From contig CAXFSR010000017.1 in the NCBI GenBank assembly GCA_964005815.1, forward strand, positions 173,401 through 237,400: a stretch of DNA of 64,000 bases, given 5' to 3'. Origin of the DNA: an uncultured Nitrospinaceae bacterium. Lineage in GTDB: Bacteria; UBA8248. A model generated the notes under the pieces. It ran no database searches, was not told the origin of the DNA, and saw nothing but the letters and a program-made list of their open reading frames with translations. The position numbers and the translations under genes were made by a program. Below, in pieces: positions 6,600 to 28,522 of the stretch (within the stretch, counting starts at the first letter, position 1; every line of letters starts with the position of its first letter).

Positions 6600-7148
6600 C
6601 TATCTTAAAACTTCCCTTACCATATGACTAATTTCAGGAATTATGATTTTATCTAATGCAGTTCTACAAGCATTACCTGAACCAGGCAAAGTCATTATTA
6701 TTGTGTCATTATAGACTCCAGCAGTTGCGCGTGTGAGGATCGCAGGAGTCCCAATTTCCTGAAAACTAATATTACGAAATAATTCTCCAAATCCCGGCAT
6801 TTCTTTATCTAAAATCGAAACTACAACATCATAGGTAGTATCTCTTTTTGTAATACCAGTCCCACCATTTGTGAGTATTACTTGCACAGAAGCATTTTTC
6901 GAAAATTCCTCAATCGAAGACCGGATTTGATCTGGTTCATCTTTTACTATCTTATAAAAATCTGCTTTATGACCATTTTCGACTAATGAATTAATTATTA
7001 ATCTTCCGCTAGTATCATTTTCTTCATTTCTAGTATCACTGACAGTAATGATTGCGCAATTGACTCCCTGTGGACCTTCTGCTTTATGTTCATTGTACGT
7101 TTTTTTATTTACGGCATTTTCTATCTCAGAACGAGATGGATTTTTCAT
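6600..7148 (-). CDS. moaB: molybdenum cofactor biosynthesis protein MoaB/MogA family
   Basis: Contains the GGTG motif (ILTNGGTGITKRDTTYD) and overall MogA/MoaB fold signature. 182 aa. Confidence 0.8.
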   Translation of the reverse strand: MKNPSRSEIENAVNKKTYNEHKAEGPQGVNCAIITVSDTRNEENDTSGRLIINSLVENGHKADFYKIVKDEPDQIRSSIEEFSKNASVQVILTNGGTGITKRDTTYDVVVSILDKEMPGFGELFRNISFQEIGTPAILTRATAGVYNDTIIMTLPGSGNACRTALDKIIIPEISHMVREVLR

Positions 7149-9497: not shown

Positions 9498-11780
9498 ATG
9501 AATGAGTTAAAAAGAACAACATTTACAACTTGTTCCCCCCATTGCGGAAATAATCCCTGTAGTTTTGAGGTTGAAACCAAAGGGGAGGAAATTTCATCAT
9601 TTCGTGCAAATCCAAGAATGGATATTAAGCCCTGTATCAAAGGATTTCAGATACCTGATAGATATAATCACCCGGATAGAATTTTATACCCGATGAAAAG
9701 GATTGGGAAAAAAGGAAGTGGCAAAAACGGATATAATACTTTTGAGAGAATTTCATGGGATGAAGCTATAACATCTATCGCGGATGGCTTAAACGCTGCA
9801 AAGGTTAAGAGTGGAAATGACAGTATTTTATTATACAACTATTCATCTCAACATACTCTTCCCGGCGGGAGAGATGGAGCACCTGCAACTATTATGAGAC
9901 TTTTAAATCTATGGGGTGGAGCAATAGAAGCCTTCAATAGAGGAAGTCTTTGCTGGAGCGCTTTCTTAGGTGGGAGTGATGACGTTCTTGGACAGTGGCA
10001 AATAAAAAATAAAAAAAGCGACAATTGTGATTGGATTATTCTTTGGGGGAACAATCCTGTTGAAACTGGATACAGAGGATTGACACAATCTCTTCAAGAA
10101 GCGAAACGCAAGGGAACAAAATTCATAGTAATAGACCCAATGAAAACTAAAACAGTTCAACGGTTCGCCGATATTCATATTCCCATTGAACCTTCTACCG
10201 ATACTGCGCTAGCACTTGGGGTCCTAAAAATTGTACTCGAAGAACAATATTTAGATAAAGACTTTCTTGCGAAAAGGACAAATGCCCCTTTCCTAGTCAA
10301 AAAATCTACTGGCAAATTTATAACCGATAGAAATGGAGACCCTTTAGTTTGGGACGAAAAGTTAGACGCATTAGTTTCTTACAAAGTTTCTCAAAAACCT
10401 ATGATTGATACAGAAAAAAATATAAATGGAGAAAAATGCACAACTTCATTTAAGCTACTACAAAATGCTTCCCAAAAATGGACCGAAGAAGCTGTAGAAA
10501 AAGAATGTGGGATACCTTCATCTAGTGTACATCAAATTGCTTATGCACTTAAAAATGGAAAAATAATAGTTTATTACGGTGCCTACCAAAGAACGTTAAA
10601 AGGGGAAAATGCGGTCAGGGCTTTACATATTTTAAATCTGATAAGCGGAGCAATTGATGGAGTTATAAATCATGGCTCAACATATACAGACACTCATTTT
10701 GATAGAGCAACAGAATCAGGATTATCAAAGATAATGGCAGAAAATTGGTCAGTACCAAATCCAGTTAAAAGAACTATACCAGTAGGCAAAATTGCAGAAG
10801 CAATCCTAAATCCTGATTCTTACGGGGGAGCCATCCACGCTGGTTTATTTATGTGGGGCAATCCTATAGGACAAGGAGGAAATTCTAATAAAACAAAAAA
10901 AGCATTACTTTCTCTCGATTTTTGCGCTGTGTCAGAAATTTTTCTCACTCCAACCGCCAAATGTGCAGATATAATAATTCCTGCTTCAACTTGGCTAGAA
11001 CGTTCCACTATCACTGAAGGTATGAGTGTGGGCGCAACGTTTTATCACCTCATTGAAGAAAGAAAACCAAAACACCAGATTTTTTATTCTCCTGGCGTAC
11101 TTAAACCATTAGGAGAATCAAAAGATGATTTTGATTTTGTATGTTTACTTGCTGAAAAAATGGGATTCAGAAAAGAATTCCCATGGGCTGATTCTAAACA
11201 ATGGATTGAAAATTTAGTTGATCTTGCTAGAAAAGATTCTCGATTTCCTTGGTTTGAGAAAATTACCACAGAAAAACTAGAAAAGAATGGAGTCCTCACC
11301 TTAGATATTCCTAGAGCAAATTCTTCATGGGACCTTAAAACAAAACACGGCCGCGCCCAGATTTATTTTGAAAATAAGACCCATTCTGTTCCGGAATATT
11401 TTTCGTCAGAAGAATTACTTGAATCTAAACAAATGAAATATCCGCTTAAACTGATAACCCCAAAAACTTATTTCCGTGCTAGTTCAACATTTAACAATGC
11501 AAACAAACTTCTCAGACATGACTTTAACGTTGCTACAATTAATAAAGAAGATGCAAAGAAACGTGACATAAAAAACGGAGATTACATACGCTTATTTAAT
11601 GACTTTGGTGAGACTAAATTTGTTGCTAAGACTACTGACGTTATTCGAAAGGGAGTTGTTCATATCCCTGCTGGCGGAAATGAAGAATTAGGAATGGCAA
11701 ACGAATTAACCGGCGATATGCTTTCTGAATACGAAAACGCTACCTTTAACAGTTACAGAATAGAACTCGAAAGAATTTAA
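9498..11780 (+). CDS. molybdopterin (bis-MGD) oxidoreductase, DmsA-like type II, stand-alone, no Tat signal
   Basis: 760 aa. N-terminal Cys cluster TCSPHCGNNPC (Cx3Cx4C) plus a distal Cys, and the DmsA-like block DRYNHPDRILYPMKRIGKKGSGKN...FERISWDEA. No RRxF twin-arginine leader and no adjacent FeS or membrane subunit. Confidence 0.85.
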   Translation: MNELKRTTFTTCSPHCGNNPCSFEVETKGEEISSFRANPRMDIKPCIKGFQIPDRYNHPDRILYPMKRIGKKGSGKNGYNTFERISWDEAITSIADGLNAAKVKSGNDSILLYNYSSQHTLPGGRDGAPATIMRLLNLWGGAIEAFNRGSLCWSAFLGGSDDVLGQWQIKNKKSDNCDWIILWGNNPVETGYRGLTQSLQEAKRKGTKFIVIDPMKTKTVQRFADIHIPIEPSTDTALALGVLKIVLEEQYLDKDFLAKRTNAPFLVKKSTGKFITDRNGDPLVWDEKLDALVSYKVSQKPMIDTEKNINGEKCTTSFKLLQNASQKWTEEAVEKECGIPSSSVHQIAYALKNGKIIVYYGAYQRTLKGENAVRALHILNLISGAIDGVINHGSTYTDTHFDRATESGLSKIMAENWSVPNPVKRTIPVGKIAEAILNPDSYGGAIHAGLFMWGNPIGQGGNSNKTKKALLSLDFCAVSEIFLTPTAKCADIIIPASTWLERSTITEGMSVGATFYHLIEERKPKHQIFYSPGVLKPLGESKDDFDFVCLLAEKMGFRKEFPWADSKQWIENLVDLARKDSRFPWFEKITTEKLEKNGVLTLDIPRANSSWDLKTKHGRAQIYFENKTHSVPEYFSSEELLESKQMKYPLKLITPKTYFRASSTFNNANKLLRHDFNVATINKEDAKKRDIKNGDYIRLFNDFGETKFVAKTTDVIRKGVVHIPAGGNEELGMANELTGDMLSEYENATFNSYRIELERI

Positions 11781-12717: not shown

Positions 12718-13851
12718 TTAGAATTTAGGCCTTCCATACTTAGCATAACCCGTCATTTCAACAAAACCTACTCCATTCACAGATACCCCTTGACTAAAAC
12801 CTTCTACATTTATTCCACCTTCCCAATAAATAATTTGAGTACTCTTTGTAGTATCTAGTTCCTGTTTTTCATGCAAAGCTTTTATTTTTAGATTAATATT
12901 ATATTTAGGCACTTCTATCACCCATTCAACTGGGTATAAAGCTTTGCTTTTTTTACTTTTCCAAAAATTTTTATTCTTAATTGTAAAATCATATAGAGAA
13001 AGATGTATCACACTACCATCACCTAAAATTAGTGATCCACTACTTGTAAGATCATAACTTCCACTTTTGTTTCGCATAAGATAAAGCATTAATTCAGTAT
13101 TGTTTGAGAGTTGAATACTAAACCAATCCCAACCGATCTGTTCTTTTCCAAGTTGATTAGAACCAAATTCATGATCCATCCAAGCCGAACCATTAACAGA
13201 AATTCTTTCACCTTCTATAGAAAGAGAACCATTAACTTTTAATCTTGTATACGAATAATAATGTGAAGCTTGGCCAACTCCAGCAGATTTCTGACTAATT
13301 CCATTTGTCCCATGAATTACAGGATTTTTTTGTGGTTCTAATTTAAAATCAAGATATAATTTATCTTGTTTTGCAAAAATTAATATTTTATTCGTTTGTT
13401 CTTGATCCTCAATTTCTGCCTTCCAATCATCTATCCATACTTTAAATTTTTCTGTGGATGCACCTGCTTGACCAAGTGCCCCTCTGCTAAATTTTTCTGA
13501 AAAATAATGTTTGTTTTTTTTTGCACTGTAAACGGAAAAATGAGAGAAGTACAAATTATTAAGTGCCCATCTACTCCTATTCACTTCAGATTTTTTTTCT
13601 AAACGTAATCCCCTTCTAAAAAAAGTTAACATAAAAGAATACTTATTTCCGCTTTCATCTTTTACATTGCCAGAAAAATACCACCATTCAATTTTAAAAT
13701 TCGGATGAGATCGGTGTTCGTTTGGAAAATCATACTTATATCCAGGAAGAGCTAATTTCCATTTATTTGCAAACACAACAGGTGCAGGAATTAATATCAA
13801 AAACGTTAAAAAATAAATTAAACATCGAATTAGTAAAAAATGTGTCATCAT
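12718..13851 (-). CDS. AttH-like secreted lipoprotein (CrtC/hydroxyneurosporene-synthase-like, lipocalin-like domain), ABC-transporter associated
   Basis: N-terminal hydrophobic signal/anchor (LLIRCLIYFLTFLILIPAPVVFA). The WWYFSG motif is characteristic of the COG5621/AttH family. 4-nt ATGA overlap with the upstream FtsX permease. Confidence 0.65.
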   Translation of the reverse strand: MMTHFLLIRCLIYFLTFLILIPAPVVFANKWKLALPGYKYDFPNEHRSHPNFKIEWWYFSGNVKDESGNKYSFMLTFFRRGLRLEKKSEVNRSRWALNNLYFSHFSVYSAKKNKHYFSEKFSRGALGQAGASTEKFKVWIDDWKAEIEDQEQTNKILIFAKQDKLYLDFKLEPQKNPVIHGTNGISQKSAGVGQASHYYSYTRLKVNGSLSIEGERISVNGSAWMDHEFGSNQLGKEQIGWDWFSIQLSNNTELMLYLMRNKSGSYDLTSSGSLILGDGSVIHLSLYDFTIKNKNFWKSKKSKALYPVEWVIEVPKYNINLKIKALHEKQELDTTKSTQIIYWEGGINVEGFSQGVSVNGVGFVEMTGYAKYGRPKF

Positions 13852-16427
13852 TCTGCTCTCAGTGCATTTTTAATTTCTGTCTTCGCAGCTATTCTAGAAG
13901 GAATAGTTCCCGCTAAAAGTGAAGATAAATATACAAAGAAAAGATAAATAAAAACGCTATAAAAAGAAAAATCAAAATAAATTGTCCAACCAAAACTCTG
14001 CTTATTGATAACAAAAATCAAAATTCCTGCTAAGAAATAACCAGAAATCGTTCCCAGAAAACAGGCAAAAAAACCGAGAAATCCAGATTCAAAAATTACG
14101 GAAAAAATTGTTCCAACTCTATTCATACCTATTGCACGAAGAGTTCCTATTTCTCTTCTTCTATCTAAAATATTAGAACTTAGATTTGTAGCAACCCCCA
14201 AAATTGCTACTAAGATTGCGATAGCTTCTAAAACATACGTAATCGAAAAAGTCTGATCGAAAACATCAAAAACTCTTTTCTTAAGACCAGAATTATTCAG
14301 AAGTATAAAGTTAGATGGTAGAGTTTTTCTTATCTTATCAAATAATTTATCCTTACTAGTTCCATTCTTTAAATAAATAGCAATAGAATTCAGGGTATAA
14401 TCGTTCCAAAGTTCTTGATAAAAATCTTGATCAATGATTACCCTCCCTCCTTCCGTGGTGTAATCGTAAAAAACACCCTTTATTTCTATTTGAATTTTTC
14501 CCCGAGGAGTAGGCAACACGATGGTGTCCCCTTTCTTGATTTTAAATCGATTTGAGAAGGTCTCAGTTATGATTGCTCCTCTGTGTTTTTTAGCTCGTCT
14601 TAAAATTTCTTTTGAATTACCATCTAAAAATAAAAGATTGCCAAAATCTGCAACGATATTAAAATTTCCTGAACCGACTTCAATGTTACTTTCTTTCCAA
14701 AAAACTTTAATACTTCTATAACCATCTACTGCTGTAATCTCCTCTAAATTCTTTAATTCAATAATTTCTTTTTTCATAAAACCAGCTTGCGAACCTTTTA
14801 TAAAATTCGATGCGGGTGCAGAATAAAAATCTGCTCTTAGAGTTTGCTCAGTCCATATAGAAACCGTTTCTCGAAAACTATTAATCATTACCACTAAACT
14901 AACGAGCATAGCTACAGCTACGGACAAAGATGCAACAGTAACAACATTTCTCGAGAGATGTCTTCGTATATTGTGTGATGCAAGAGATATTAATTTAAAC
15001 TTATAAAAAATAGATTTAAAAATTAAAGAGGTATAAAAAACAACTATAAAACTAATCGAAGAAATAGATGCAATAAGAAATAAAGCAGAAAGATATCCAA
15101 AAATTGGAACACCATTCCAAGGTGCAAATCGAGATGTAATATAAGAAAGAAATATCATGATTATTGTAAAAATAATGAACCGATACATATAAAAATCAGG
15201 AAGAACAATAGATGGAAATCTAACTCTAATGCCCCGTGAAGGATCAATTTTTCCAGCCTTAATCGCTGGCCATAAAGACGAAAAGAAGGACCCTACTACC
15301 CCTATACACATGGCGATTATAAGTTCAAATATAGAAGGACTGACATCTGTTACGTACAAAAAAGTATAGAGATTCTGGATTGTCTTTGTAACAATAAATA
15401 GAACACCCCTAGAAAAAATAAAAGCTAAAACAACTCCCAAGCAAGAACCAGCTAAACCAATACAAATTGCCTCCATGCAAATTAAAATAGTTCCCTGCAA
15501 AGAAGTTAAACCAAGAGATCTCAAGGTTGCAATCTCCTTCGTACGTCTAATAACTGATGCAGACATAGAATTAAAGATTAGGAAAAAACCTACTAGAACA
15601 GAAATAAAACTTAGAACTTTTAGATTTAATTGAAACGAACCTAACATTTTCTGTACATCAGACCCACGTCTTTCAGGTCTATCTACTATCAATCCACTCG
15701 GAATTTTTAATTGTATCAAACGTTTCATGTGGTCTGTTTTTTTATTGTCTTTTAGAACTATATCTATACGATCTAAATATCCTAATCTATTAAAAGATGC
15801 TTGAGCGTCACCTATATCCATAACTACGAGCATTCCGCCCATTGAGTTTGATAATTTATTCTTTTTTAAAATTCCTCTAACCTCAAATTCTTGATAGTTT
15901 GCAGACTCTATTTTCACAAAAGACCCTATTCCAACACCAAGAACATTTGCTAATTCCTTACCTATAAACAAACCGTTACGATTTTCTAAACTAGACAATA
16001 CATCTTCGGTTGAAATAATTTTTTCTACTTCATAAAGACGAAAATTCTCTCTTGCGAGAATATCGACTCCTAGAAGCAAAGCTGGTTTTTGGGAAGATTT
16101 AACAGAATTTTCTTTGTCTAGAGCGTTTTTTATTAATACCGTCTGTTGAATAACAGGAGATAAATTTTCAATTTGTGTTAATTTCAAAAGTTTAATAAAT
16201 GTTTCCTCAGGCACACCTAATCCACTACCTAAAACTTGAAGATTAGTTTTTCCGGAAATTGCATCTAAACTATTTTGAAAAGCTCTAAGAGAAGCATTAT
16301 TTGCAAGTTGAATCGATAAATAAACAGATACTCCTAAAGCTACTCCTAGAACAGTGAGAATAAACCTATATCGTTCTATTCTTAAGTAACGTAAAAATAA
16401 AGTTTTAAAGATTTTAATTAAGAACAA
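13848..16427 (-). CDS. ABC transporter permease with two FtsX domains (MacB/LolE-like, AttF/G-type)
   Basis: 859 aa with two 4-TM FtsX-like blocks separated by large extracytoplasmic domains. Apparent TTG start immediately abutting the ATPase TGA (TGATTG). Confidence 0.8.
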   Translation of the reverse strand: MFLIKIFKTLFLRYLRIERYRFILTVLGVALGVSVYLSIQLANNASLRAFQNSLDAISGKTNLQVLGSGLGVPEETFIKLLKLTQIENLSPVIQQTVLIKNALDKENSVKSSQKPALLLGVDILARENFRLYEVEKIISTEDVLSSLENRNGLFIGKELANVLGVGIGSFVKIESANYQEFEVRGILKKNKLSNSMGGMLVVMDIGDAQASFNRLGYLDRIDIVLKDNKKTDHMKRLIQLKIPSGLIVDRPERRGSDVQKMLGSFQLNLKVLSFISVLVGFFLIFNSMSASVIRRTKEIATLRSLGLTSLQGTILICMEAICIGLAGSCLGVVLAFIFSRGVLFIVTKTIQNLYTFLYVTDVSPSIFELIIAMCIGVVGSFFSSLWPAIKAGKIDPSRGIRVRFPSIVLPDFYMYRFIIFTIIMIFLSYITSRFAPWNGVPIFGYLSALFLIASISSISFIVVFYTSLIFKSIFYKFKLISLASHNIRRHLSRNVVTVASLSVAVAMLVSLVVMINSFRETVSIWTEQTLRADFYSAPASNFIKGSQAGFMKKEIIELKNLEEITAVDGYRSIKVFWKESNIEVGSGNFNIVADFGNLLFLDGNSKEILRRAKKHRGAIITETFSNRFKIKKGDTIVLPTPRGKIQIEIKGVFYDYTTEGGRVIIDQDFYQELWNDYTLNSIAIYLKNGTSKDKLFDKIRKTLPSNFILLNNSGLKKRVFDVFDQTFSITYVLEAIAILVAILGVATNLSSNILDRRREIGTLRAIGMNRVGTIFSVIFESGFLGFFACFLGTISGYFLAGILIFVINKQSFGWTIYFDFSFYSVFIYLFFVYLSSLLAGTIPSRIAAKTEIKNALRAE

Positions 16428-17135
16428 TCAAGAAACCTCTTCCCCTAACCTTCCATCTCTAATTTCAACTCTTCGTGATGCAGAAAACAAAGCCATAGGA
16501 TCATGACTTACCATCAAAACCGTCACATGACCTTCTTTAGATAAATTAGAGATTAATTCTAAAATTTCCTTTCCTCGATTTGAGTCTAGATTCCCTGTCG
16601 GTTCATCTGCAAGCAACAGAGAAGGGGAATTTATAAACGCTCTTGCTATAGCAACTCGCTGCATCTCTCCACCTGAAAGTTGTTGAGGCAAAAAATTCAT
16701 CCTATTCTCAAGACCGACTTTGATTAACAGATCACCAGACTTTTTCTCTATTTCTTTTTTGTTTTTTCCTGCTAAAACTAAAGGTAAAGATACATTTTCA
16801 ATCGCACTCATTGTAGGCATTAGATTAAAGAACTGATGAACAAAACCAATTTCTTCACGCCTCATCTTACTCAGTTCTCTATCATGAAAATTTACAACAT
16901 TTTTTCCGTTTATAATTATTTCTCCTGATGTTGGAGAATCAATACAACCAATTAAATTTAAAAGAGTACTCTTTCCCGAACCACTAGGGCCAGAAATAGA
17001 AAGAAATTCCCCCTTTTCAACTTTTAAATCAATATTTTCTACTGCATTAAAACGAAATGTTCCTTGAATATATTCTTTGGTAATTTTTTTTAGACTAACT
17101 ATCAAAAAGAACTCCATTTTTATAGTAAAATACAC
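16428..17135 (-). CDS. ABC transporter ATP-binding protein (LolD/MacB-ATPase type)
   Basis: Walker A GPSGSGKST, ABC signature LSGGEMQRVAIARA, Walker B LLLADEPTGNLD. The true start may be the internal Met (MEFFLIV) at 17115-17117. Confidence 0.85.
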   Translation of the reverse strand: MYFTIKMEFFLIVSLKKITKEYIQGTFRFNAVENIDLKVEKGEFLSISGPSGSGKSTLLNLIGCIDSPTSGEIIINGKNVVNFHDRELSKMRREEIGFVHQFFNLMPTMSAIENVSLPLVLAGKNKKEIEKKSGDLLIKVGLENRMNFLPQQLSGGEMQRVAIARAFINSPSLLLADEPTGNLDSNRGKEILELISNLSKEGHVTVLMVSHDPMALFSASRRVEIRDGRLGEEVS

Positions 17136-22849: not shown

Positions 22850-22987
22850 AAAAACACTCTTTTTTAAACAGAAAACTATTTACACTTTATACAGTTTTTT
22901 TGAGTTCTTCTTTATGTTATAAATATTTCCGTTGTAGAGGAAAAAAGTTTTATTTAAAGTAGCGAAAAATAATTCTAAGAGGTCCAG

Positions 22988-24508
22988 ATGTCTAAATATG
23001 CAATGGCAATTGATTTAAGAGCATGTATTGGCTGTCATGCCTGTACTATAGCCTGTAAATCAGAACACGACATTCCAATAGGTACTTGGCGTTGTTGGGT
23101 GAAAGAGGTAGAGAAAGGCACATTCCCAAATACGAGACGAGAGTTTCTTCCTGTTCTCTGCAATCAATGCGATGACGCCCCTTGTCAAAATATTTGTCCA
23201 ACAAAAGCACTCTTCAGAAGGAATGATGGAATTGTAGATTTGGATCCAGAATGGTGCATAGGATGTAAATCATGTATAGCAGCATGTCCTTATGATCAAA
23301 TATTCATAGACCCAAATACAAGTACTGCCGAAAAATGTAATTTTTGTTCCAACCGACTGGAAGCAGATTTGGAACCTGCGTGTGTTGTTGTTTGTCCAAC
23401 AGAGTGTAGAGTCTTTGGTGATTTAGAAGACCCAGATGCTAAAATCAATAAATTATTAACACATGAACCACATAATGTAAGAAAACCTGAATACAACACT
23501 TCTCCAAATATTTATTATGTAAATGGAAGTCAACAACTTCTAGATCCAACAAAACCAATGCAATCTGGAATTTACAAACAAGGAGAAATGAGCGAAGAAT
23601 TGAAACAATCTGTTCCCGAATTTAAGAATGATCCTCAAGAAAGTCGAACAGTTTATGACACTTTCCATAATATTCCTTGGGACAAGAATATTATTACATA
23701 TTTAATGACTAAGGGTGCTAGTACAGGCTTACTAATTTTAAGTCTCTTTCTTTGGTGGGTTGGTTTCAAGAGTAGTTTATTCTCTTTCTGGATGCCTATA
23801 CTTAGTGGAGTTCTCCTAACTATCACAGGTTATGTACTTATTACGGATTTAAAAAAACCAGAACGTTTTTATTATATTTTACTTCGTTCAAATTGGAATA
23901 GTTGGATGGCATGGGGAACTTGGTTCATTACGTTAAAAGGAATATTTATTTTACTATGGTTACTAGGAGCAATGGCTGGAAATGATGGATTTTTGGACTT
24001 CATTCTTTGGCCTACTATCTTACTTTCTTTTCTTTCTTCTATTTATACTGGATTCTTCTTCGCCCAAGCTAGCGCTAGAGACCTCTGGAAAGGAAGTGAA
24101 AATACGATAGATATCGGAGTTTTATCGATTCTTAAAGGAGCATCAATTTTAGCTTTTTTCGTAATAATTTTTCCAGTCGCGGACAAAACTAACATACTGA
24201 ACACACTTGGAAACGTAATAACAGTATGTACCCTTCTTCATTTTTCAATTTTAATGTTCTCAATACTTTTACATAGATTCGGCTCTGTTGCACATGAGAG
24301 ATCCATCGAGTTAATACTTAAAGGACCTTTCAAAAAGGAATTTTGGAATGGGGCAATTATTGCCGGGTGTGCGGTTCCTATGTTTATTTTCTGGTGGATT
24401 GGATATAACTATTTTACTTTCTTAGTTGCTAGTACGCTTATAGTACTAGGTTCCTACTACTGGGATAAAATATGGGTACAAGCTGGGCAGAAAGTACCAT
24501 TGTCTTAA
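22988..24508 (+). CDS. fused four-cluster [4Fe-4S] ferredoxin (PsrB/NrfC-like) + 8-TM NrfD/PsrC-like quinone-interacting membrane subunit
   Basis: N-terminal 4 Cys motifs (CIGCHACTIAC, CNQCDDAPCQNICP, CIGCKSCIAACP, CNFCS...CVVVCP), then about 8 predicted TM helices in residues about 235-500. No signal or Tat motif. Confidence 0.8.
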   Translation: MSKYAMAIDLRACIGCHACTIACKSEHDIPIGTWRCWVKEVEKGTFPNTRREFLPVLCNQCDDAPCQNICPTKALFRRNDGIVDLDPEWCIGCKSCIAACPYDQIFIDPNTSTAEKCNFCSNRLEADLEPACVVVCPTECRVFGDLEDPDAKINKLLTHEPHNVRKPEYNTSPNIYYVNGSQQLLDPTKPMQSGIYKQGEMSEELKQSVPEFKNDPQESRTVYDTFHNIPWDKNIITYLMTKGASTGLLILSLFLWWVGFKSSLFSFWMPILSGVLLTITGYVLITDLKKPERFYYILLRSNWNSWMAWGTWFITLKGIFILLWLLGAMAGNDGFLDFILWPTILLSFLSSIYTGFFFAQASARDLWKGSENTIDIGVLSILKGASILAFFVIIFPVADKTNILNTLGNVITVCTLLHFSILMFSILLHRFGSVAHERSIELILKGPFKKEFWNGAIIAGCAVPMFIFWWIGYNYFTFLVASTLIVLGSYYWDKIWVQAGQKVPLS

Positions 24509-24524
24509 TTTTCAAGGAGAAGAA

Positions 24525-27398
24525 ATGGTTTCAAAACATTTACAATCTGGAGTTGGGGCACATAATATTTCTTCGTTGGGATATCCTGAACTTTTAGAAA
24601 CTTCGAAAACAACCTCAGATTCAGATAAAACACATACTGTAAAAAAGAATGGGAAATTAAGATCCTACCCACCACCTGAAGAATGGGACAACTGGACTGA
24701 GTTTGAAAGTGGAACTTGGCCCGAAAAAACACAAAGAAATTATTCTCTTATTCCTACTCTTTGCTTCAACTGTGAAGCAGGTTGTGGTCTTCTGGCTTAT
24801 GTTGATAAAGACGATATGAAAATCAGGAAAATAGAGGGAAACCCTCTTCATCCTGGTTCTAGAGGAAGAAACTGTGCAAAAGGATGGGTAACACTGAATC
24901 AAGTAAATGACCCAGATAGAATCCTTTATCCACTCAAGAGAGTCGGCAAAAGAGGAGAAGGAGAATGGGAAAGAGTAAGTTGGGACGAAGTACTAGATGA
25001 TCTTTCAGCAAGAATCAGAAAATCTATTGAAGAAGAAAGACGTAACGAAATTATATATCATGTGGGAAGACCTGGTGAAGATGGTTTTATGTTTAGAACT
25101 CTCGCAAGTTGGGGTGTCGATGGGCATAATAGTCATACAAATGTTTGTAGTTCCTCTGCAAGAATTGGCCAGTACCTTTGGAATGGTTCAGATCGTCCAT
25201 CACCAGATTTTTCCAACGCAGAAGCAATTCTTTTAATAAGCAGTCATTTAGATACAGGCCACTACTTTAACCCTTCAGCTCAGCGCATTATTGAAGCTCA
25301 ATTAAACGGTGCTAAAATCATTGTAATAGACCCGAGACTTTCAAATACTGCGGCTAAAGCAGACTACTGGCTTCCTGCGTATAGCGGAACAGAACCTGCA
25401 ATCTTACTTGCTATTGTTCGCTACTTGTTAGAAACCGGACAATTTGACGAAAAATTTGTTGAAGAATGGTTTAACTGGGCCGAATATTTGAGTTCTGTTC
25501 ATCCTCAAGATGAAATTACTTTTGACAATTTCATTGTTAGGCTAAAAGAAGAATATGCTGAATTCACTTTTGAATATGCATCTGAGGAAACAGGTGTTTC
25601 AATAGAACAAATAGCAGAAGTTGCTCAGGTGATTGCTAGAGCAGGTAGTCGACTATGTGTTCACGTATGGAGAGCAGCAGCTACAGGCAATTTGAATGGA
25701 TGGCAAGTTGCAAGATGCCTACATTTTATTCCATCTTTGACTGGCGCAATAGGTACTGTCGGAGGAACACATTTAGCAAGTTGGCATAAATTCGTTCCTT
25801 CTCATCCAAATCCTGCACCCGGCCCCAAAGACTGGAACGAATTACTTTACCCTACAGAATATCCACTAGCTCATTTTGAAATGAGTTTCTTAATGCCACA
25901 CCTGATGAAAGACAAAGGACATAAAATAGACACATATTTTACCCGTGTTTATAACCCTGTATGGACGAATCCAGACGGTTTTATGTGGGTAGATATGCTA
26001 AGAGATGAAAATAAAATCGGTTGTCACGTCGCACTTACTCCCACTTGGAGTGAGACTGCGTGGTTTGCTGATTACATCTTACCGATGGGAGTTGCTACAG
26101 AAAGACATGACAATCAGAGTCAAGAAACTCATCCAGCGAAATGGTTTGGATTCAGGCAACCTGTTCTCCGTGTCGCTAGAGAAAAACTAGGTGAAACTGT
26201 TGAAACGACTAGAGAAACAAACCCGGGTGAAGTGTGGGAAGAAAATGAATTTTTAATAGAACTTTCTTGGAGAATTGACCCTGATGGTTCATTAGGAATC
26301 AGAAAATATTTCGAAAGTCCATATAGAAATGGAGAGAAAATTACAGTTAACGAGTATTATCAATGGATGTTCGAAAATGGAGTACCTGGACTTCCAGAAG
26401 CGTCCGAAAAAGAGGGCCTTTCTCCATTAGAATATATGAGAAAATATGGAACTTTCACCGTGGAAGATAATGTCTATGAAGTACACATGAAAGAACTTCC
26501 CGAGGATGACCTTAACAGTGCAGATATTACTGAACTAGATGGAACTATTAATGATAATGGAAAAACTATTGGGAATATGAGTAAAGGAAAAGCTCGAATT
26601 GGCTTCAATACTCCATCAAAAAAATTAGAATTTTACAGCGCGACTATGACTGATTGGAACTGGCCAGAACATGCAATTCCTTCCTACAAAAAAACACATG
26701 TTTACTGGAGAGACATGGATAAGAGTGAAAATGAATTTGATTTACTACCTAATTATAGACTACCAACTTTGATACATACTAGATCTGCAGTGAAATGGTT
26801 ATACGAAATTACTCACAATAATCCTCTCTGGATACATACCGAAGATGCAAATCGTATGGGCATCAAAACAGACGACTTAGTCAAGGTAGAAACTGAAATA
26901 GGTTATTTCGTAACACGTTGCTGGGTAACAGAAGGTTTGAAGCCAGGAATAGTTGCAATGGCTCACCACCTAGGACGTTGGAGATTAAATGAAAATATCG
27001 GGGCACCTAAAATTGCTTCTGCTTTAGTTGAAATAGAAGAACAGGACAGTGAATTTACTATGAATCAAATTCACGGGGTTCAACCATTTAAAAGTGATGA
27101 CCCAGATACCGAAAGAATATGGTGGAAAGAAATAGGAGTAAATCAAAACTTAACTTTTCCTGTAAATCCTGATCCTATTAGTGGTATGCACTGTTGGCAT
27201 CAAAAAGTAAAATTAACCAAAGCGACTTCTTCAGAAAGTTATGGAGATATTAAAGTAGATACAGAAAAAAGTTTTGCACACTACAAAAAATGGCTAGAAA
27301 TGGCTAGACCTGCTCCAGGACCAGATGGTCTAAGAAGACCTCTCTGGTTTTTAAGACCAAATAAACCACAAGCAGATGCTTATTTGCTAGAGGAGTAA
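24525..27398 (+). CDS. molybdopterin oxidoreductase catalytic subunit, Psr/Phs/Ttr/Soe-like, no Tat signal
   Basis: 957 aa. CFNCEAGCG (Cx2Cx3C) FS0 motif, ILYPLKRVGKRGEGEWERVSWDEV block, MGD-binding regions. N-terminus MVSKHLQSGVGAHN lacks a twin-arginine. AAGGAGA RBS 8 nt upstream. Confidence 0.85.
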   Translation: MVSKHLQSGVGAHNISSLGYPELLETSKTTSDSDKTHTVKKNGKLRSYPPPEEWDNWTEFESGTWPEKTQRNYSLIPTLCFNCEAGCGLLAYVDKDDMKIRKIEGNPLHPGSRGRNCAKGWVTLNQVNDPDRILYPLKRVGKRGEGEWERVSWDEVLDDLSARIRKSIEEERRNEIIYHVGRPGEDGFMFRTLASWGVDGHNSHTNVCSSSARIGQYLWNGSDRPSPDFSNAEAILLISSHLDTGHYFNPSAQRIIEAQLNGAKIIVIDPRLSNTAAKADYWLPAYSGTEPAILLAIVRYLLETGQFDEKFVEEWFNWAEYLSSVHPQDEITFDNFIVRLKEEYAEFTFEYASEETGVSIEQIAEVAQVIARAGSRLCVHVWRAAATGNLNGWQVARCLHFIPSLTGAIGTVGGTHLASWHKFVPSHPNPAPGPKDWNELLYPTEYPLAHFEMSFLMPHLMKDKGHKIDTYFTRVYNPVWTNPDGFMWVDMLRDENKIGCHVALTPTWSETAWFADYILPMGVATERHDNQSQETHPAKWFGFRQPVLRVAREKLGETVETTRETNPGEVWEENEFLIELSWRIDPDGSLGIRKYFESPYRNGEKITVNEYYQWMFENGVPGLPEASEKEGLSPLEYMRKYGTFTVEDNVYEVHMKELPEDDLNSADITELDGTINDNGKTIGNMSKGKARIGFNTPSKKLEFYSATMTDWNWPEHAIPSYKKTHVYWRDMDKSENEFDLLPNYRLPTLIHTRSAVKWLYEITHNNPLWIHTEDANRMGIKTDDLVKVETEIGYFVTRCWVTEGLKPGIVAMAHHLGRWRLNENIGAPKIASALVEIEEQDSEFTMNQIHGVQPFKSDDPDTERIWWKEIGVNQNLTFPVNPDPISGMHCWHQKVKLTKATSSESYGDIKVDTEKSFAHYKKWLEMARPAPGPDGLRRPLWFLRPNKPQADAYLLEE

Positions 27399-27477
27399 GA
27401 AAATTTGGCCTAGACGTTCTAAAAACCTAGAGGAACTAAATCAGCAGTCTAAATTAAGAGAAGAATTATATAGAGTC

Positions 27478-28044
27478 ATGTCTATAACTTTTCTAGATCC
27501 TCCGGAAAAAAAGTTATTACACTTCTTGAATGAAAATTATCCATTCCTTTTTGAAGAAAATGGAAATCCTTTAGGTGACTTAGTTAAAGATCTAAGAGTA
27601 GATTTCACGAATCTATTTGTCTTGTCCTCTCCACCATATGAATCTGTTTTATTGGATGAAAGTGGTTTTTTGAATTCAAAAGTGACTGACAACGTGAATG
27701 ATTTTTTTAGACATTCTGGATTTAACCCTAGTTCAAAAAATATAGGACAGAAATTTCATAGTATACTATCAATGGACCATATTAGCGTAGAATTAGAATT
27801 TATGTCTCACCTCGCAAAAAATCAACATAAAGACCTCATCAATAAAAATGAACAAGAATATTACAAATCATTAGATTTATCGTCAAAATTTCTAGATAAT
27901 CACTTATTAAGATGGGTCCCTATTTATTTAACAGCTATAGAAAGGGATTCTAAAACTTTTTTTTACAAAGAATTGTGCAAGTGGGCTCAAAACTACATTT
28001 TAGATGACAGAAAATATATCGAAGAAATAACTAAAAGAAATTAA
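27478..28044 (+). CDS. TorD/DmsD-family molybdoenzyme maturation chaperone
   Basis: 188 aa. DHISVELEFMSHLA matches the TorD-family DHxxxELEF core signature. Positioned immediately after the catalytic subunit. Confidence 0.7.
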   Translation: MSITFLDPPEKKLLHFLNENYPFLFEENGNPLGDLVKDLRVDFTNLFVLSSPPYESVLLDESGFLNSKVTDNVNDFFRHSGFNPSSKNIGQKFHSILSMDHISVELEFMSHLAKNQHKDLINKNEQEYYKSLDLSSKFLDNHLLRWVPIYLTAIERDSKTFFYKELCKWAQNYILDDRKYIEEITKRN

Positions 28045-28069: not shown

Positions 28070-28522
28070 TTATTGTTCCTGAGACCACTTCTGTGACTTA
28101 GTAAGATAACTTCTCAACTCATGCAGATCTTTAGTCCATTTTTCCCAACTTCCTTTTGAAACCTTACAATTTTTAGAGAAAAAACCGTATTTTTCTAACC
28201 AGAATTTTGCGTCTGAATCTAGAATTTTCAATAATTCGAAAATTTTATTTTCTGAACCAGCCTCTCTAAAAAGATTTTCAAGCATTCTTTTTCGTGTCTG
28301 AATTCCCGTTCTTAAGCCCATCTCTAAACCAATCTCTCTAATCCTATTTCTTGTCAAGAAAAAACCACATCTAGTTGGCGCTATCAACAATTCAACAAGG
28401 TCATGCAGATTTCCTTTAGTAAAAGTTTCTGAGATATCTGACAAAAAACTCCCTTTCAGAAGATGAAAAGATTTTTCCAAATAGACAAACAAATAAGAAA
28501 ATACCATAGAAACTAAAAGCAA
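28070..28522 (-). CDS. hypothetical protein (150 aa)
   Basis: ORF divergent from the trmJ-like gene. N-terminal hydrophobic stretch. No motif recognised. Confidence 0.4.
   Translation of the reverse strand: MLLVSMVFSYLFVYLEKSFHLLKGSFLSDISETFTKGNLHDLVELLIAPTRCGFFLTRNRIREIGLEMGLRTGIQTRKRMLENLFREAGSENKIFELLKILDSDAKFWLEKYGFFSKNCKVSKGSWEKWTKDLHELRSYLTKSQKWSQEQ

What the first reader, a model, noticed from the sequence alone, without database searches (positions are those of the whole stretch)
22988..28044. Tat-less Psr/Ttr/Soe-like molybdoenzyme with fused ferredoxin + NrfD membrane anchor and a dedicated TorD chaperone
Three co-directional genes with 17-80 nt gaps. The first is a single polypeptide joining a four-[4Fe-4S] PsrB/NrfC-like domain to an 8-TM NrfD/PsrC-like domain. 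The second is a 957-aa bis-MGD catalytic subunit with a Cx2Cx3C FS0 motif. The third is a TorD-family chaperone. Neither the FeS domain nor the catalytic subunit has a twin-arginine leader, and both start directly into their cofactor-binding motifs. Classical Psr/Phs/Ttr complexes export the A and B subunits via Tat. Because the FeS domain is covalently fused to the N-terminus of the membrane anchor and has no signal, the catalytic dimer most plausibly faces the cytoplasm, as in Nar or the SoeABC sulfite dehydrogenase. The B-C fusion and B/C-A-chaperone gene order are uncommon. The substrate cannot be inferred from sequence.
Basis: partly seen in the sequence, partly recalled or inferred. Interest (0 to 1): 0.65.

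Follow-up and report, generated by a model that had tools for sequence, protein, structure and literature searches.

The report
Inward-facing sulfur-type molybdenum enzyme operon
This is an intact three-gene operon in a marine Nitrospinota genome for a membrane-bound molybdenum enzyme that faces the inside of the cell and most likely oxidises sulfite to sulfate; it belongs to a very widespread, already noticed but biochemically untested enzyme family.

Summary
Three co-directional genes encode a fused four-cluster ferredoxin + 8-helix NrfD anchor (22988-24508), a 957-aa Mo-bisPGD catalytic subunit (24525-27398) and a TorD-family chaperone (27478-28044). All three are under strong purifying selection.

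- No Tat leader is present or possible on either subunit, here or in about 75-87 relatives.
- Lys+Arg bias puts the anchor N-terminus inside in 67/67 fusions.
- The nearest Tat-bearing relatives show the opposite anchor orientation.

Two points need correcting. The fusion is not rare: it is the rule in a highly conserved family found in more than 12 bacterial phyla and haloarchaea, and it is probably the two-gene "PSRLC3" of green sulfur bacteria. A substrate can also be proposed. In other lineages the gene pair sits beside TauE, rhodanese, TusA, DsrE2, persulfide-dioxygenase-like genes and, in Chlorobium, dsrN-dsrA. This points to cytoplasmic sulfite:quinone oxidoreduction, which is inferred and not shown.

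The family is not an ortholog of canonical SoeABC (24% identity, different anchor family). It looks like an independent inward-facing lineage derived from Tat-exported B-C-A-TorD enzymes. Verdict: new member of a known kind, moderate interest.

The parts
22977..22982 (+). Shine-Dalgarno AAGAGG, 5 nt before the ATG of the BC gene
   Evidence: read directly from the sequence
22988..23542 (+). BC gene, N-terminal PsrB-like ferredoxin domain (res 1-185): 16 Cys for four [4Fe-4S] clusters, first Cys at residue 13, no signal peptide
   Evidence: Pfam Fer4_11. Phmmer to T. thermophilus PsrB 2vpw_B, E 5e-55, res 1-181 to 1-181. Cys positions.
23543..23683 (+). BC gene, hydrophilic K/R-containing linker (about res 186-232) joining the ferredoxin domain to helix 1
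   Evidence: hydropathy and K+R counts
23684..24508 (+). BC gene, NrfD/PsrC-type anchor domain with 8 transmembrane helices, N-in/C-in topology, and the NrfD signature loop DLKKPERF after helix 2
   Evidence: Pfam NrfD E 3e-15. Eight helices; K+R 16 on the N-terminal side vs 2 on the other, or 12 vs 2 with the loop boundaries. Family-wide 9.9 vs 0.97, 67/67.
24525..24665 (+). A gene, N-terminal leader (res 1-47) with no RR and no hydrophobic core. It occupies the position of the Tat signal in related exported enzymes and may be a remnant leader or chaperone-binding tail.
   Evidence: alignment anchored on the conserved PPxExW motif; inference
24666..24695 (+). A gene, conserved motif YPPPEEWDNW (res 48-57). 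It is family-wide and also marks the mature N-terminus of Tat-bearing relatives.
24762..24875 (+). A gene, FS0 [4Fe-4S] site C80-x2-C83-x3-C87...C117
   Evidence: Pfam Molybdop_Fe4S4; Cys invariant in 88/88 family sequences
25146..25148 (+). A gene, codon of Cys208, the predicted molybdenum ligand
   Evidence: aligns with Cys173 of PsrA in 2vpw_A; conserved in 87/88
24525..27398 (+). A gene, whole 957-aa Mo-bisPGD catalytic subunit
   Evidence: Pfam; below every NCBIfam equivalog cutoff; dN/dS 0.022
27478..28044 (+). TorD/NarJ-family chaperone gene (188 aa)
   Evidence: Pfam PF02613 E 5e-19; conserved in the same position in L003, L004 and L014; dN/dS 0.064

Best explanation
The operon encodes a two-polypeptide, membrane-bound complex iron-sulfur molybdoenzyme whose catalytic side faces the cytoplasm. 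The BC protein inserts with its N-terminus inside, so its four-cluster ferredoxin domain sits on the cytoplasmic face of an 'inverted' NrfD anchor. The Tat-less catalytic subunit (Mo-bisPGD with a Cys ligand, plus FS0) docks onto that domain after cofactor insertion assisted by the TorD-like chaperone.

The most likely reaction is oxidation of cytoplasmic sulfite to sulfate. [quoted passage not shown] The quinol then feeds the respiratory chain. The enzyme would both detoxify sulfite and conserve energy.

Shown here: gene structure, cofactor motifs, absence of any export signal, N-in topology, orthology to the fused family including the green-sulfur-bacterial gene pair next to dsr, and non-orthology to SoeABC. 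Inferred: the substrate (from gene neighbourhoods in other lineages), the direction of electron flow, the quinone site, and the role of the A leader as chaperone-binding remnant of a Tat signal.
For: Architecture and cofactors.

No export signal:
- Every ORF starts at the first start codon after an in-frame stop.
- 0/75 BC proteins have a Tat motif, and the median room before the first Cys motif is 21 residues.
- No genuine Tat leader occurs in 87 A subunits.

Topology:
- K+R 9.9 vs 0.97, 67/67 fusions.
- Controls: Azoarcus NrfD 3 vs 10 and DmsC 5 vs 9 (classical orientation); putative SoeC 23 vs 0 (inverted).

Sulfite context:
- Chlorobium sp. N1 has BC-A-TauE-DsrE2-rhodanese-TusA-DsrN-DsrA, with DsrA and DsrE2 above NCBIfam cutoffs.
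- Rhodococcus jostii pRHL3 has MBL+rhodanese, DsrE, TusA, BC, A.
- Acidobacteria have rhodanese-TauE-DUF1634 next to BC-A.
- Halomicrococcus has rhodanese-TauE-BC-A-MobA.
- A Myxococcota contig has an MBL-rhodanese protein whose best NCBIfam match is the sulfurtransferase/dioxygenase Blh (below its cutoff), then Sulf_transp x2, BC, A.
- 30 of 64 loci carry at least one such gene within 5 kb.

Literature:
- PSRLC3 of green sulfur bacteria is encoded by '2 genes' (PMC5473276).
- It is described as 'an alternative sulfite-oxidizing system' (PMC6338057).
- Cytoplasmic orientation with an inverted anchor is the accepted model for SoeABC (PMC8076601).

Selection: dN/dS 0.02-0.06; 265 of 913 A positions are >=95% identical across phyla.
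Against: - No member of the fused family has been assayed, so substrate and direction rest on neighbourhood evidence only.
- In this window and its close Nitrospinota relatives no sulfur gene lies near the operon. The neighbours are housekeeping genes.
- 34 of 64 loci show no sulfur-linked neighbour.
- The closest characterised sequence relatives are reductases (PsrA, PhsA).
- By my recollection (not checked here), the Aquifex Soe/Sre enzyme works in both directions in vitro.
- The equation with 'PSRLC3' rests on two short literature statements plus my recollection of Frigaard & Dahl 2008 and Gregersen et al. 2011, which could not be read here.
- The SoeABC references used for the non-orthology statement were identified by architecture, not by experiment.
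Confidence: 0.55

Rival explanations
1. A cytoplasm-facing reductase of sulfur compounds. Quinol-derived electrons would reduce polysulfide, protein- or low-molecular-weight persulfides, thiosulfate or tetrathionate inside the cell, with TusA/DsrE/rhodanese delivering sulfane sulfur. This resembles the 'cytoplasmic Psr' proposed for Campylobacterota.
For: The best solved-structure and HMM matches are PsrA, PhsA and ArrA, with a Cys Mo ligand. Sulfurtransferases are frequent neighbours. Cytoplasmic polysulfide reductases have been proposed in Sulfurimonas and Sulfurovum (PMC10045233).
Against: Many hosts are aerobes. The commonest neighbours are O2-dependent persulfide-dioxygenase-like proteins and TauE-type sulfite exporters, which produce or handle sulfite. 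In Chlorobium the pair sits with the oxidative dsr/DsrE2/TusA set, whose product is sulfite. Quinol is a poor reductant for these couples in aerobic cells (established redox potentials).
Confidence: 0.2
2. A cytoplasm-facing quinone-linked molybdoenzyme for a substrate unrelated to sulfur in Nitrospinota (for example an N- or S-oxide, arsenite, selenate or chlorate, or an organic substrate). The sulfur context seen elsewhere would not apply to this lineage.
For: No sulfur genes occur near the operon in the window or in L003, L004 or L014. No NCBIfam equivalog cutoff is reached.
Against: A is 56-65% identical to orthologs from sulfur-context loci, with 265 of 913 positions >=95% identical. That degree of conservation argues for one conserved substrate across the family.
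Confidence: 0.12
3. The complex is in fact periplasmic. The A and B parts would be exported by an unrecognised route, or by hitch-hiking, and the anchor would have the classical orientation.
For: B subunits of classical Psr and Dms enzymes also lack their own signals and hitch-hike on A (established knowledge). A TorD-family chaperone, typical of Tat substrates, is present.
Against: A has no Tat motif or h-region in any of 87 family members. The positive-inside bias is strongly N-in in 67/67 and opposite to Tat-bearing relatives. A folded four-cluster domain N-terminal to eight Sec/YidC-inserted helices has no known export route. NarJ shows that TorD-family chaperones also serve cytoplasmic enzymes (established knowledge).
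Confidence: 0.03
4. A non-catalytic, cofactor-less module of the ActB/QrcB type that only relays electrons.
For: Weak NCBIfam similarity to QrcB (88 bits, cutoff 440).
Against: All four FS0 Cys are invariant (88/88) and the Mo-ligand Cys is conserved (87/88). Both MGD-binding Pfam domains are intact. A Mo-enzyme chaperone is encoded alongside, and MobA follows the pair in a haloarchaeon.
Confidence: 0.02

Closest known systems
PSRLC3 (polysulfide-reductase-like complex 3) of green sulfur bacteria
   Same: Two genes: a Psr-like catalytic subunit and, in the Chlorobium loci read here, a fused FeS + membrane subunit. No export signal. Proposed cytoplasmic sulfite oxidation. Chlorobium orthologs are 56-57% (A) and 37-38% (BC) identical to the window proteins and lie beside TauE-dsrE2-rhd-tusA-dsrN-dsrA (PMC5473276, PMC6338057).
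   Different: The Chlorobium loci have no adjacent TorD gene. The window operon has no sulfur genes nearby and sits in a Nitrospinota chromosome. PSRLC3 itself has never been characterised biochemically, to my knowledge. I could not read the papers that define its gene identifiers.
SoeABC sulfite:quinone oxidoreductase (Allochromatium vinosum, Aquifex aeolicus, Ruegeria pomeroyi)
   Same: Tat-less A and B subunits. Cytoplasm-facing, with an anchor whose N-terminus is inside (putative SoeC K+R 23:0; PMC8076601). Cys-ligated Mo (PMC10100899). Same proposed reaction.
   Different: Soe has three separate subunits in A-B-C order. Its anchor matches Pfam DmsC, not NrfD. Putative SoeA from Paraburkholderia and Azospirillum is only about 24% identical (150 bits) to the window A, no closer than PhsA at 165 bits. 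Soe is therefore an analogue and a distant homologue, not an ortholog.
Thermus thermophilus PsrABC (PDB 2VPW-2VPZ)
   Same: Closest solved structure. PsrB matches the ferredoxin domain end to end (E 5e-55). PsrA matches the N-terminal half of A (E 3e-37) with the Mo-ligand Cys aligned. Eight-helix cofactor-less quinone-binding anchor.
   Different: Psr is Tat-exported and periplasm-facing, with three separate subunits. The window anchor domain gives no sequence hit to any PDB chain. A is about 190 residues longer.
Tat-dependent B-C-A-TorD Psr-like operons (Azoarcus sp. KH32C pAZKH; Sulfurovum mangrovi plasmid; metagenomic P0145)
   Same: Nearest sequence relatives outside the family (29-46% identity to A). 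Same B, C, A gene order, with an adjacent TorD in Azoarcus and Sulfurovum but not on the P0145 contig. NrfD-type anchor. Sulfurovum and P0145 share the PPxExW motif at the mature N-terminus.
   Different: B and C are separate genes. A carries a classical twin-arginine leader. The anchor has the classical orientation (K+R 3:10 in Azoarcus).
NarGHI with NarJ
   Same: A cytoplasm-facing complex iron-sulfur molybdoenzyme matured by a TorD/NarJ-family chaperone that binds a non-exported N-terminal tail regarded as a remnant Tat signal (established knowledge).
   Different: Nar has an Asp Mo ligand and a dihaem NarI anchor, and belongs to the type II DMSOR clade. NarG and NarH score weakly (29 and 74 bits).

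Membership tests
Complex iron-sulfur molybdoenzyme (Mo/W-bisPGD, DMSOR/MopB superfamily), Psr/Phs-like branch | Catalytic subunit with an N-terminal FS0 Cys motif and both MGD-binding domains | tested here: met
   Pfam PF04879, PF00384, PF01568; C80/83/87/117 invariant in 88/88
Complex iron-sulfur molybdoenzyme (Mo/W-bisPGD, DMSOR/MopB superfamily), Psr/Phs-like branch | Cys (or Sec, Ser, Asp) ligand to Mo at the conserved position | tested here: met
   Cys208 aligns with PsrA Cys173; conserved in 87/88
Complex iron-sulfur molybdoenzyme (Mo/W-bisPGD, DMSOR/MopB superfamily), Psr/Phs-like branch | Four-cluster ferredoxin subunit with 16 Cys | tested here: met
   four Cys motifs; PsrB match E 5e-55
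Complex iron-sulfur molybdoenzyme (Mo/W-bisPGD, DMSOR/MopB superfamily), Psr/Phs-like branch | Cofactor-less NrfD/PsrC anchor with 8 helices | tested here: met
   Pfam NrfD E 3e-15; eight hydrophobic segments
Classical periplasmic Psr/Phs/Ttr/Arr reductases | Twin-arginine leader on the catalytic subunit, and periplasmic A and B | tested here: not met
   no RR motif or h-region and no room for an upstream extension; N-in topology
Classical periplasmic Psr/Phs/Ttr/Arr reductases | Score above a curated equivalog cutoff (PhsA, TtrA, ArrA, DmsA) | tested here: not met
   PhsA 190 vs 694; TtrA 111 vs 1750; ArrA 108 vs 1600; dmsA_ynfE 178 vs 778
SoeABC sulfite dehydrogenase (quinone) | No export signals; cytoplasm-facing with an inverted anchor | tested here: met
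   model for Soe in PMC8076601
SoeABC sulfite dehydrogenase (quinone) | Sequence orthology of A to SoeA | tested here: not met
   24% identity and 150 bits to putative SoeA of Paraburkholderia and Azospirillum, similar to PhsA. IMG gives the family only a generic COG name, not soeA. Caveat: the references were identified by architecture.
SoeABC sulfite dehydrogenase (quinone) | Three separate subunits in soeA-soeB-soeC order, with a DmsC-type anchor | tested here: not met
   here the order is BC fusion then A, and the anchor is Pfam NrfD, whereas putative SoeC is Pfam DmsC
SoeABC sulfite dehydrogenase (quinone) | Sulfite-dependent quinone reduction | not testable with these tools
   needs an enzyme assay
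PSRLC3 of green sulfur bacteria | Two-gene Psr-like complex (A plus fused BC) without signal peptides | tested here: met
   Chlorobium loci L085, L087 and L093 have a 517-535 aa BC directly upstream of A; '2 genes encoding PSRLC3' (PMC5473276)
PSRLC3 of green sulfur bacteria | Orthology of the window proteins to the green-sulfur-bacterial pair | tested here: met
   A 56-57% identical over 95% of its length; BC 37-38% over its full length
PSRLC3 of green sulfur bacteria | Association with the oxidative dsr system | tested here: met
   L085: TauE, DsrE2, rhodanese, TusA, DsrN-like, DsrA downstream. This holds for Chlorobium, not for the window itself.
PSRLC3 of green sulfur bacteria | Identity of these genes with the locus tags originally named PSRLC3 | not testable with these tools
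   Frigaard & Dahl 2008 and Gregersen et al. 2011 are not held
ACIII ActB / QrcB cofactor-less modules | Loss of the Mo ligand and cofactor-binding residues | tested here: not met
   ligand and FS0 Cys conserved; QrcB 88 bits vs cutoff 440
TorD/DmsD/NarJ chaperone family (gene 3) | PF02613 domain, encoded next to its molybdoenzyme | tested here: met
   E 5e-19, 69 bits vs cutoff 22; below all NCBIfam equivalog cutoffs

The most novel reading that the evidence does not exclude
The fused, Tat-less family would be a second origin of inward-facing sulfur-oxyanion:quinone oxidoreductases, independent of Soe. It would have arisen from Tat-exported B-C-A-TorD enzymes by loss of the twin-arginine leader, inversion of the NrfD anchor and B-C fusion. 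The Nitrospinota operon would preserve the intermediate marks: a TorD chaperone and a 47-residue remnant leader. The enzyme would be the main route of cytoplasmic sulfite oxidation in many aerobic heterotrophs, haloarchaea and marine Nitrospinota, giving relatives of nitrite oxidisers an unrecognised sulfur-derived electron donor.
Probability: 0.4. Interest if true: 0.6.

Novelty: new member of a known kind. Interest (0 to 1): 0.4.

Why it matters
Cytoplasmic sulfite arises from dissimilatory sulfur oxidation, persulfide dioxygenases and organosulfonate breakdown, and it is toxic. Only SoeABC has been established experimentally as an inward-facing quinone-linked sulfite oxidase.

The family found here is far more widespread than the distribution reported for SoeC (PMC8076601). 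It occurs in Acidobacteriota, Chloroflexota, Bacteroidota, Planctomycetota, Actinomycetota, Gemmatimonadota, Chlorobi, Nitrospinota and haloarchaea. It is extremely conserved, and annotation pipelines name it only generically, so sulfur-cycle surveys based on soeA would miss it.

Its presence in marine Nitrospinota suggests a sulfite-handling capacity not listed in the genome surveys of the phylum that I could read. The covalent B-C fusion also gives direct topological support to the 'inverted NrfD' idea so far only postulated for SoeC. Together with its Tat-bearing sister enzymes, the family offers a natural example of a respiratory module flipping across the membrane. Cultured carriers make the hypothesis testable: Rhodococcus jostii RHA1, Thermomicrobium roseum, Flavilitoribacter nigricans, Chlorobium sp. 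N1 and Natrinema.

Tried and rejected
**Finding a bona fide SoeA sequence**
- Cluster look-ups of ten distant representatives gave no informative names.
- The supplement of the MopB phylogeny paper holds no sequences.
- Several partial plasmid hits were unrelated soluble molybdoenzymes (Ralstonia, Thioclava, Caballeronia, Agrobacterium).
- Putative SoeABC operons were finally recognised by architecture in Paraburkholderia and Azospirillum.

**Literature**
- Searches for a fused SoeBC or a fused NrfD found no description.
- Gregersen et al. 2011 could not be retrieved.
- No paper in the library links Nitrospina to this enzyme.

**Computations that gave nothing useful**
- A phmmer search of the anchor domain alone against the PDB found nothing.
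- The promoter/terminator scan gave counts no higher than in shuffled sequence, so operon boundaries rest on gene spacing only.

**A reading I first made and then corrected**
- I first took the Sulfurovum relative to be Tat-less. Its Tat signal lies in another frame of a frameshifted gene.

**Rejected interpretations**
- Non-catalytic ActB/QrcB type: cofactor ligands are conserved.
- Nar type: wrong ligand and wrong anchor.
- Mobile or horizontally acquired island in this genome: synteny with housekeeping genes is conserved at 79% protein identity.

**Not done**
- Structure prediction was not run. The allowed alignment would have needed another whole-database search and would not have changed the conclusion.
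Full report
**1. What is in the sequence**

The gaps are 16 and 79 nt.

Pfam confirms the stated domains.
- Gene 1 joins a four-cluster ferredoxin (Fer4_11, res 52-145) to an NrfD domain (res 224-488).
- Gene 2 has the Fe4S4, molybdopterin and MGD-binding domains.
- Gene 3 is a TorD/NarJ-family protein.

The ferredoxin part has 16 Cys in four cluster motifs, and the catalytic subunit has C80-x2-C83-x3-C87...C117. The ferredoxin domain matches T. thermophilus PsrB end to end (E 5e-55). The catalytic subunit matches PsrA best (E 3e-37), with Cys208 aligned to the Mo ligand Cys173. No NCBIfam equivalog cutoff is reached.

Every ORF starts at the first start codon after an in-frame stop. Genes 1 and 2 have strong ribosome-binding sites. 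Only the BC protein starts straight into its motif.

The genes are functional. Against the 95%-identical locus of a Nitrospinota MAG (L014), dN/dS is 0.035, 0.022 and 0.064.

The window is about 35% G+C. Its other genes are housekeeping genes: tRNA synthetases, DnaK/DnaJ/GrpE, Ffh, L19, TrmD and Fmt. There is also a 2-oxoacid:ferredoxin oxidoreductase. The gene order around the operon is conserved in a 79%-identical relative. The operon is therefore a stable chromosomal trait, not an island.

**2. Orientation**

(i) No leader is possible.
- In 75 BC fusions from other genomes, the longest open frame before the first Cys motif has a median of 21 residues and a minimum of 11. None contains a Tat-like motif.
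- In 87 catalytic subunits the N-terminus has no RR motif followed by a hydrophobic core. The three pattern matches lie in upstream non-coding translation.

(ii) The positive-inside rule holds. Loops on the same side as the anchor's N-terminus carry on average 9.9 Lys+Arg, against 0.97 on the other side. This is so in 67 of 67 fusions. The window protein gives 12 vs 2 with these loop boundaries, and 16 vs 2 by an independent helix finder.

(iii) Internal controls behave as expected.
- The separate NrfD subunit of the Tat-bearing Azoarcus relative gives 3 vs 10, the opposite bias.
- Vibrio DmsC gives 5 vs 9, also the opposite bias.
- Putative SoeC proteins, postulated in the literature to be inverted (PMC8076601), give 23 vs 0 and 22 vs 0.

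The N-terminal ferredoxin domain carries four clusters and no signal, and it is covalently joined to helix 1. The fusion itself therefore fixes the redox chain on the cytoplasmic side.

**3. The family**

The catalytic subunit belongs to a very large and unusually conserved family.
- More than 8000 database proteins pass E 1e-10, which is the scoring cap. Among the 120 best, the Nitrospinota-clade members are 75-97% identical and all others 62-65%.
- At 50% clustering the family collapses to essentially one full-length representative.
The 80 best are all at least 56% identical.
- Those 80 come from Nitrospinota, Acidobacteriota, Chloroflexota, Bacteroidota, Planctomycetota, Gemmatimonadota, Binatia, Methylomirabilota, Acidimicrobiia, Calditrichota, Spirochaetia and Chlorobium.
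- Members also lie on replicons of cultured Thermomicrobium roseum, Rhodococcus jostii RHA1 and several haloarchaea.

In nearly every locus with upstream sequence, a 500-600 aa BC fusion lies directly before A. A few loci appear split or frameshifted. The fusion is thus the norm for this family, not a rarity. What is unusual in the window is the adjacent TorD gene, found within 5 kb in only 5 of 64 loci. In Rhodococcus and Natrinema an Mrp/NBP35 gene follows the pair instead, and in Halomicrococcus a MobA gene does.

Across 88 sequences the four FS0 Cys are invariant and Cys208 is present in 87. In A, 265 of 913 positions are at least 95% identical.

**4. Relation to known systems**

Green sulfur bacteria. 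In Chlorobium sp. N1 the order is BC, A, TauE, DsrE2, rhodanese, TusA, a CobB-like DsrN and DsrA. DsrE2 and DsrA score above their NCBIfam cutoffs. The literature held here says that green sulfur bacteria carry "2 genes encoding PSRLC3" alongside dsr (PMC5473276). [quoted passage not shown] I recall Gregersen et al. 2011 making the same proposal, but could not retrieve that paper. I therefore equate the family with PSRLC3, at roughly 75-80% confidence.

Canonical SoeABC. Operons with the expected architecture were found on Paraburkholderia and Azospirillum replicons: a Tat-less A of 977-998 aa, a B of 251 aa and a C of 314-319 aa, in A-B-C order.
- Their A subunits are only about 24% identical to the window A (150 bits). 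That is no closer than Salmonella PhsA at 165 bits.
- Their anchors match Pfam DmsC, not NrfD.
- IMG names the family only by a generic COG term.
The family is therefore a functional analogue of Soe, not its ortholog.

Nearest relatives outside the family. These are unfused operons in the same B, C, A order (TorD follows in Azoarcus and Sulfurovum): Azoarcus sp. KH32C (33%), Sulfurovum mangrovi (36-46%) and a metagenomic Tat-bearing protein, P0145 (29%). Their catalytic subunits carry classical twin-arginine leaders. Anchored on the shared PPxExW motif, the 25-48-residue N-terminal tails of family members occupy the position of the Tat signal in Sulfurovum and P0145. In Nitrospinota, Chlorobi and Bacteroidota the tails begin with K/H-rich stretches (such as SKHLQS or KHKPSFIEK) that loosely recall SRRxFLK.

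The simplest history is loss of export, inversion of the anchor and fusion of B to C. The TorD gene and the tail would be leftovers, as accepted for NarG and NarJ (established knowledge). This history is inference.

**5. Probable function**

The window itself gives no clue to the substrate. Other lineages do.
- Acidobacteria: rhodanese, a small ORF, TauE and DUF1634 next to the pair.
- Rhodococcus: two MBL-fold proteins (the one scanned carries two rhodanese domains), DsrE and TusA.
- A Myxococcota contig (41% identity): an MBL-rhodanese protein and two Sulf_transp genes. The MBL protein's best NCBIfam match is the sulfurtransferase/dioxygenase Blh, below its cutoff.
- A haloarchaeon: rhodanese and TauE.
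- T. roseum: a CsoR-family regulator.
- Chlorobium: the oxidative dsr set.

Iterated profile searches found at least one of TauE, rhodanese, TusA, DsrE or MBL-PDO within 5 kb in 30 of 64 loci with enough flanking DNA. My rough expectation by chance is under 10%; that figure is an estimate, not a computation.

These neighbours either generate sulfite in the cytoplasm (rDsr, persulfide dioxygenase, rhodanese) or export it (TauE). The best-supported function is therefore sulfite + H2O -> sulfate + 2H+ + 2e-. Electrons would pass through FS0 and four clusters to quinone at an N-side site.

The main rival is a cytoplasmic reductase of polysulfide, persulfide or thiosulfate. It fits the Psr/Phs similarity and proposals made for Campylobacterota (PMC10045233). 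It fits poorly with aerobic hosts and sulfite-centred neighbours. In Nitrospinota, sulfite could come from assimilatory metabolism or organosulfonates; this could not be examined.

**6. Verdict**

The system is a new (Nitrospinota) member of a known but uncharacterised kind, and it is not rare.

Value added here:
- explicit evidence for the inward orientation;
- evidence that the family is distinct from Soe;
- the family's Tat-bearing sister group and a possible remnant leader;
- its very wide distribution;
- a testable substrate hypothesis.

Interest is moderate.

Noticed in passing
window 9498-11780 (+): A second molybdopterin oxidoreductase (760 aa) with no Molybdop_Fe4S4 (FS0) domain hit in Pfam. 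Its best but sub-threshold NCBIfam matches are dmsA_ynfE, Fdh-alpha and bisC_fam. No adjacent FeS or anchor gene is apparent, so it is probably a soluble cytoplasmic enzyme.
   Followed up: partly
window 6600-7148 (-): A MogA/MoaB-like molybdopterin biosynthesis domain protein (MoCF_biosynth) lies about 16 kb upstream of the operon. A third Mo-related gene in one 64-kb window.
   Followed up: no
window 12718-17135 (-): A CrtC-like double-lipocalin protein followed by a MacB/FtsX permease (859 aa) and an ABC ATPase. An unusual pairing whose function was not examined.
   Followed up: no
window 28070-28522 (-): A 150-aa ORF convergent on the TorD gene has no Pfam or NCBIfam match. A 130-aa ORF, also without a Pfam hit, occupies the same position in the 79%-identical relatives L003 and L004.
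   Followed up: partly
L010 5830-7020 (Sulfurovum mangrovi plasmid NZ_CP087125.1): The catalytic gene of the related B-C-A-TorD operon is unannotated and split. The twin-arginine signal (…ESRRSFLKGTAYSVAG…) is in one frame, the mature N-terminus in another, and a further frameshift lies near 6960-7017. This is a pseudogene or an assembly error.
   Followed up: partly
L007 9802-10971 and L100 7897-9057; L101 8117-8797: In Rhodococcus jostii pRHL3 and Natrinema halophilum the gene after A is an Mrp/NBP35 FeS-cluster carrier. In Halomicrococcus it is MobA. Different lineages appear to attach different maturation factors where Nitrospinota has TorD.
   Followed up: no
P0123 / L099 5001-7877 (Myxococcota UBA796 contig): The most divergent fused-type member (41% identity) aligns an Asp rather than Cys at the Mo-ligand column, with a Cys a few residues downstream. 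This may be an alignment shift or a real ligand change.
   Followed up: no
L092 6392-7925; L067 6171-7094: In two otherwise typical family loci the B and C parts are in separate or overlapping frames. These are either genuine secondary splits of the fusion or frameshift errors in MAGs.
   Followed up: no
L009 9425-12558 and L010 9995-12243: Both Tat-bearing relatives carry, after TorD, a conserved set of small hypothetical genes and a 370-380 aa 4Fe-4S dicluster protein. This suggests extra electron-transfer partners that are absent from the fused family.
   Followed up: no
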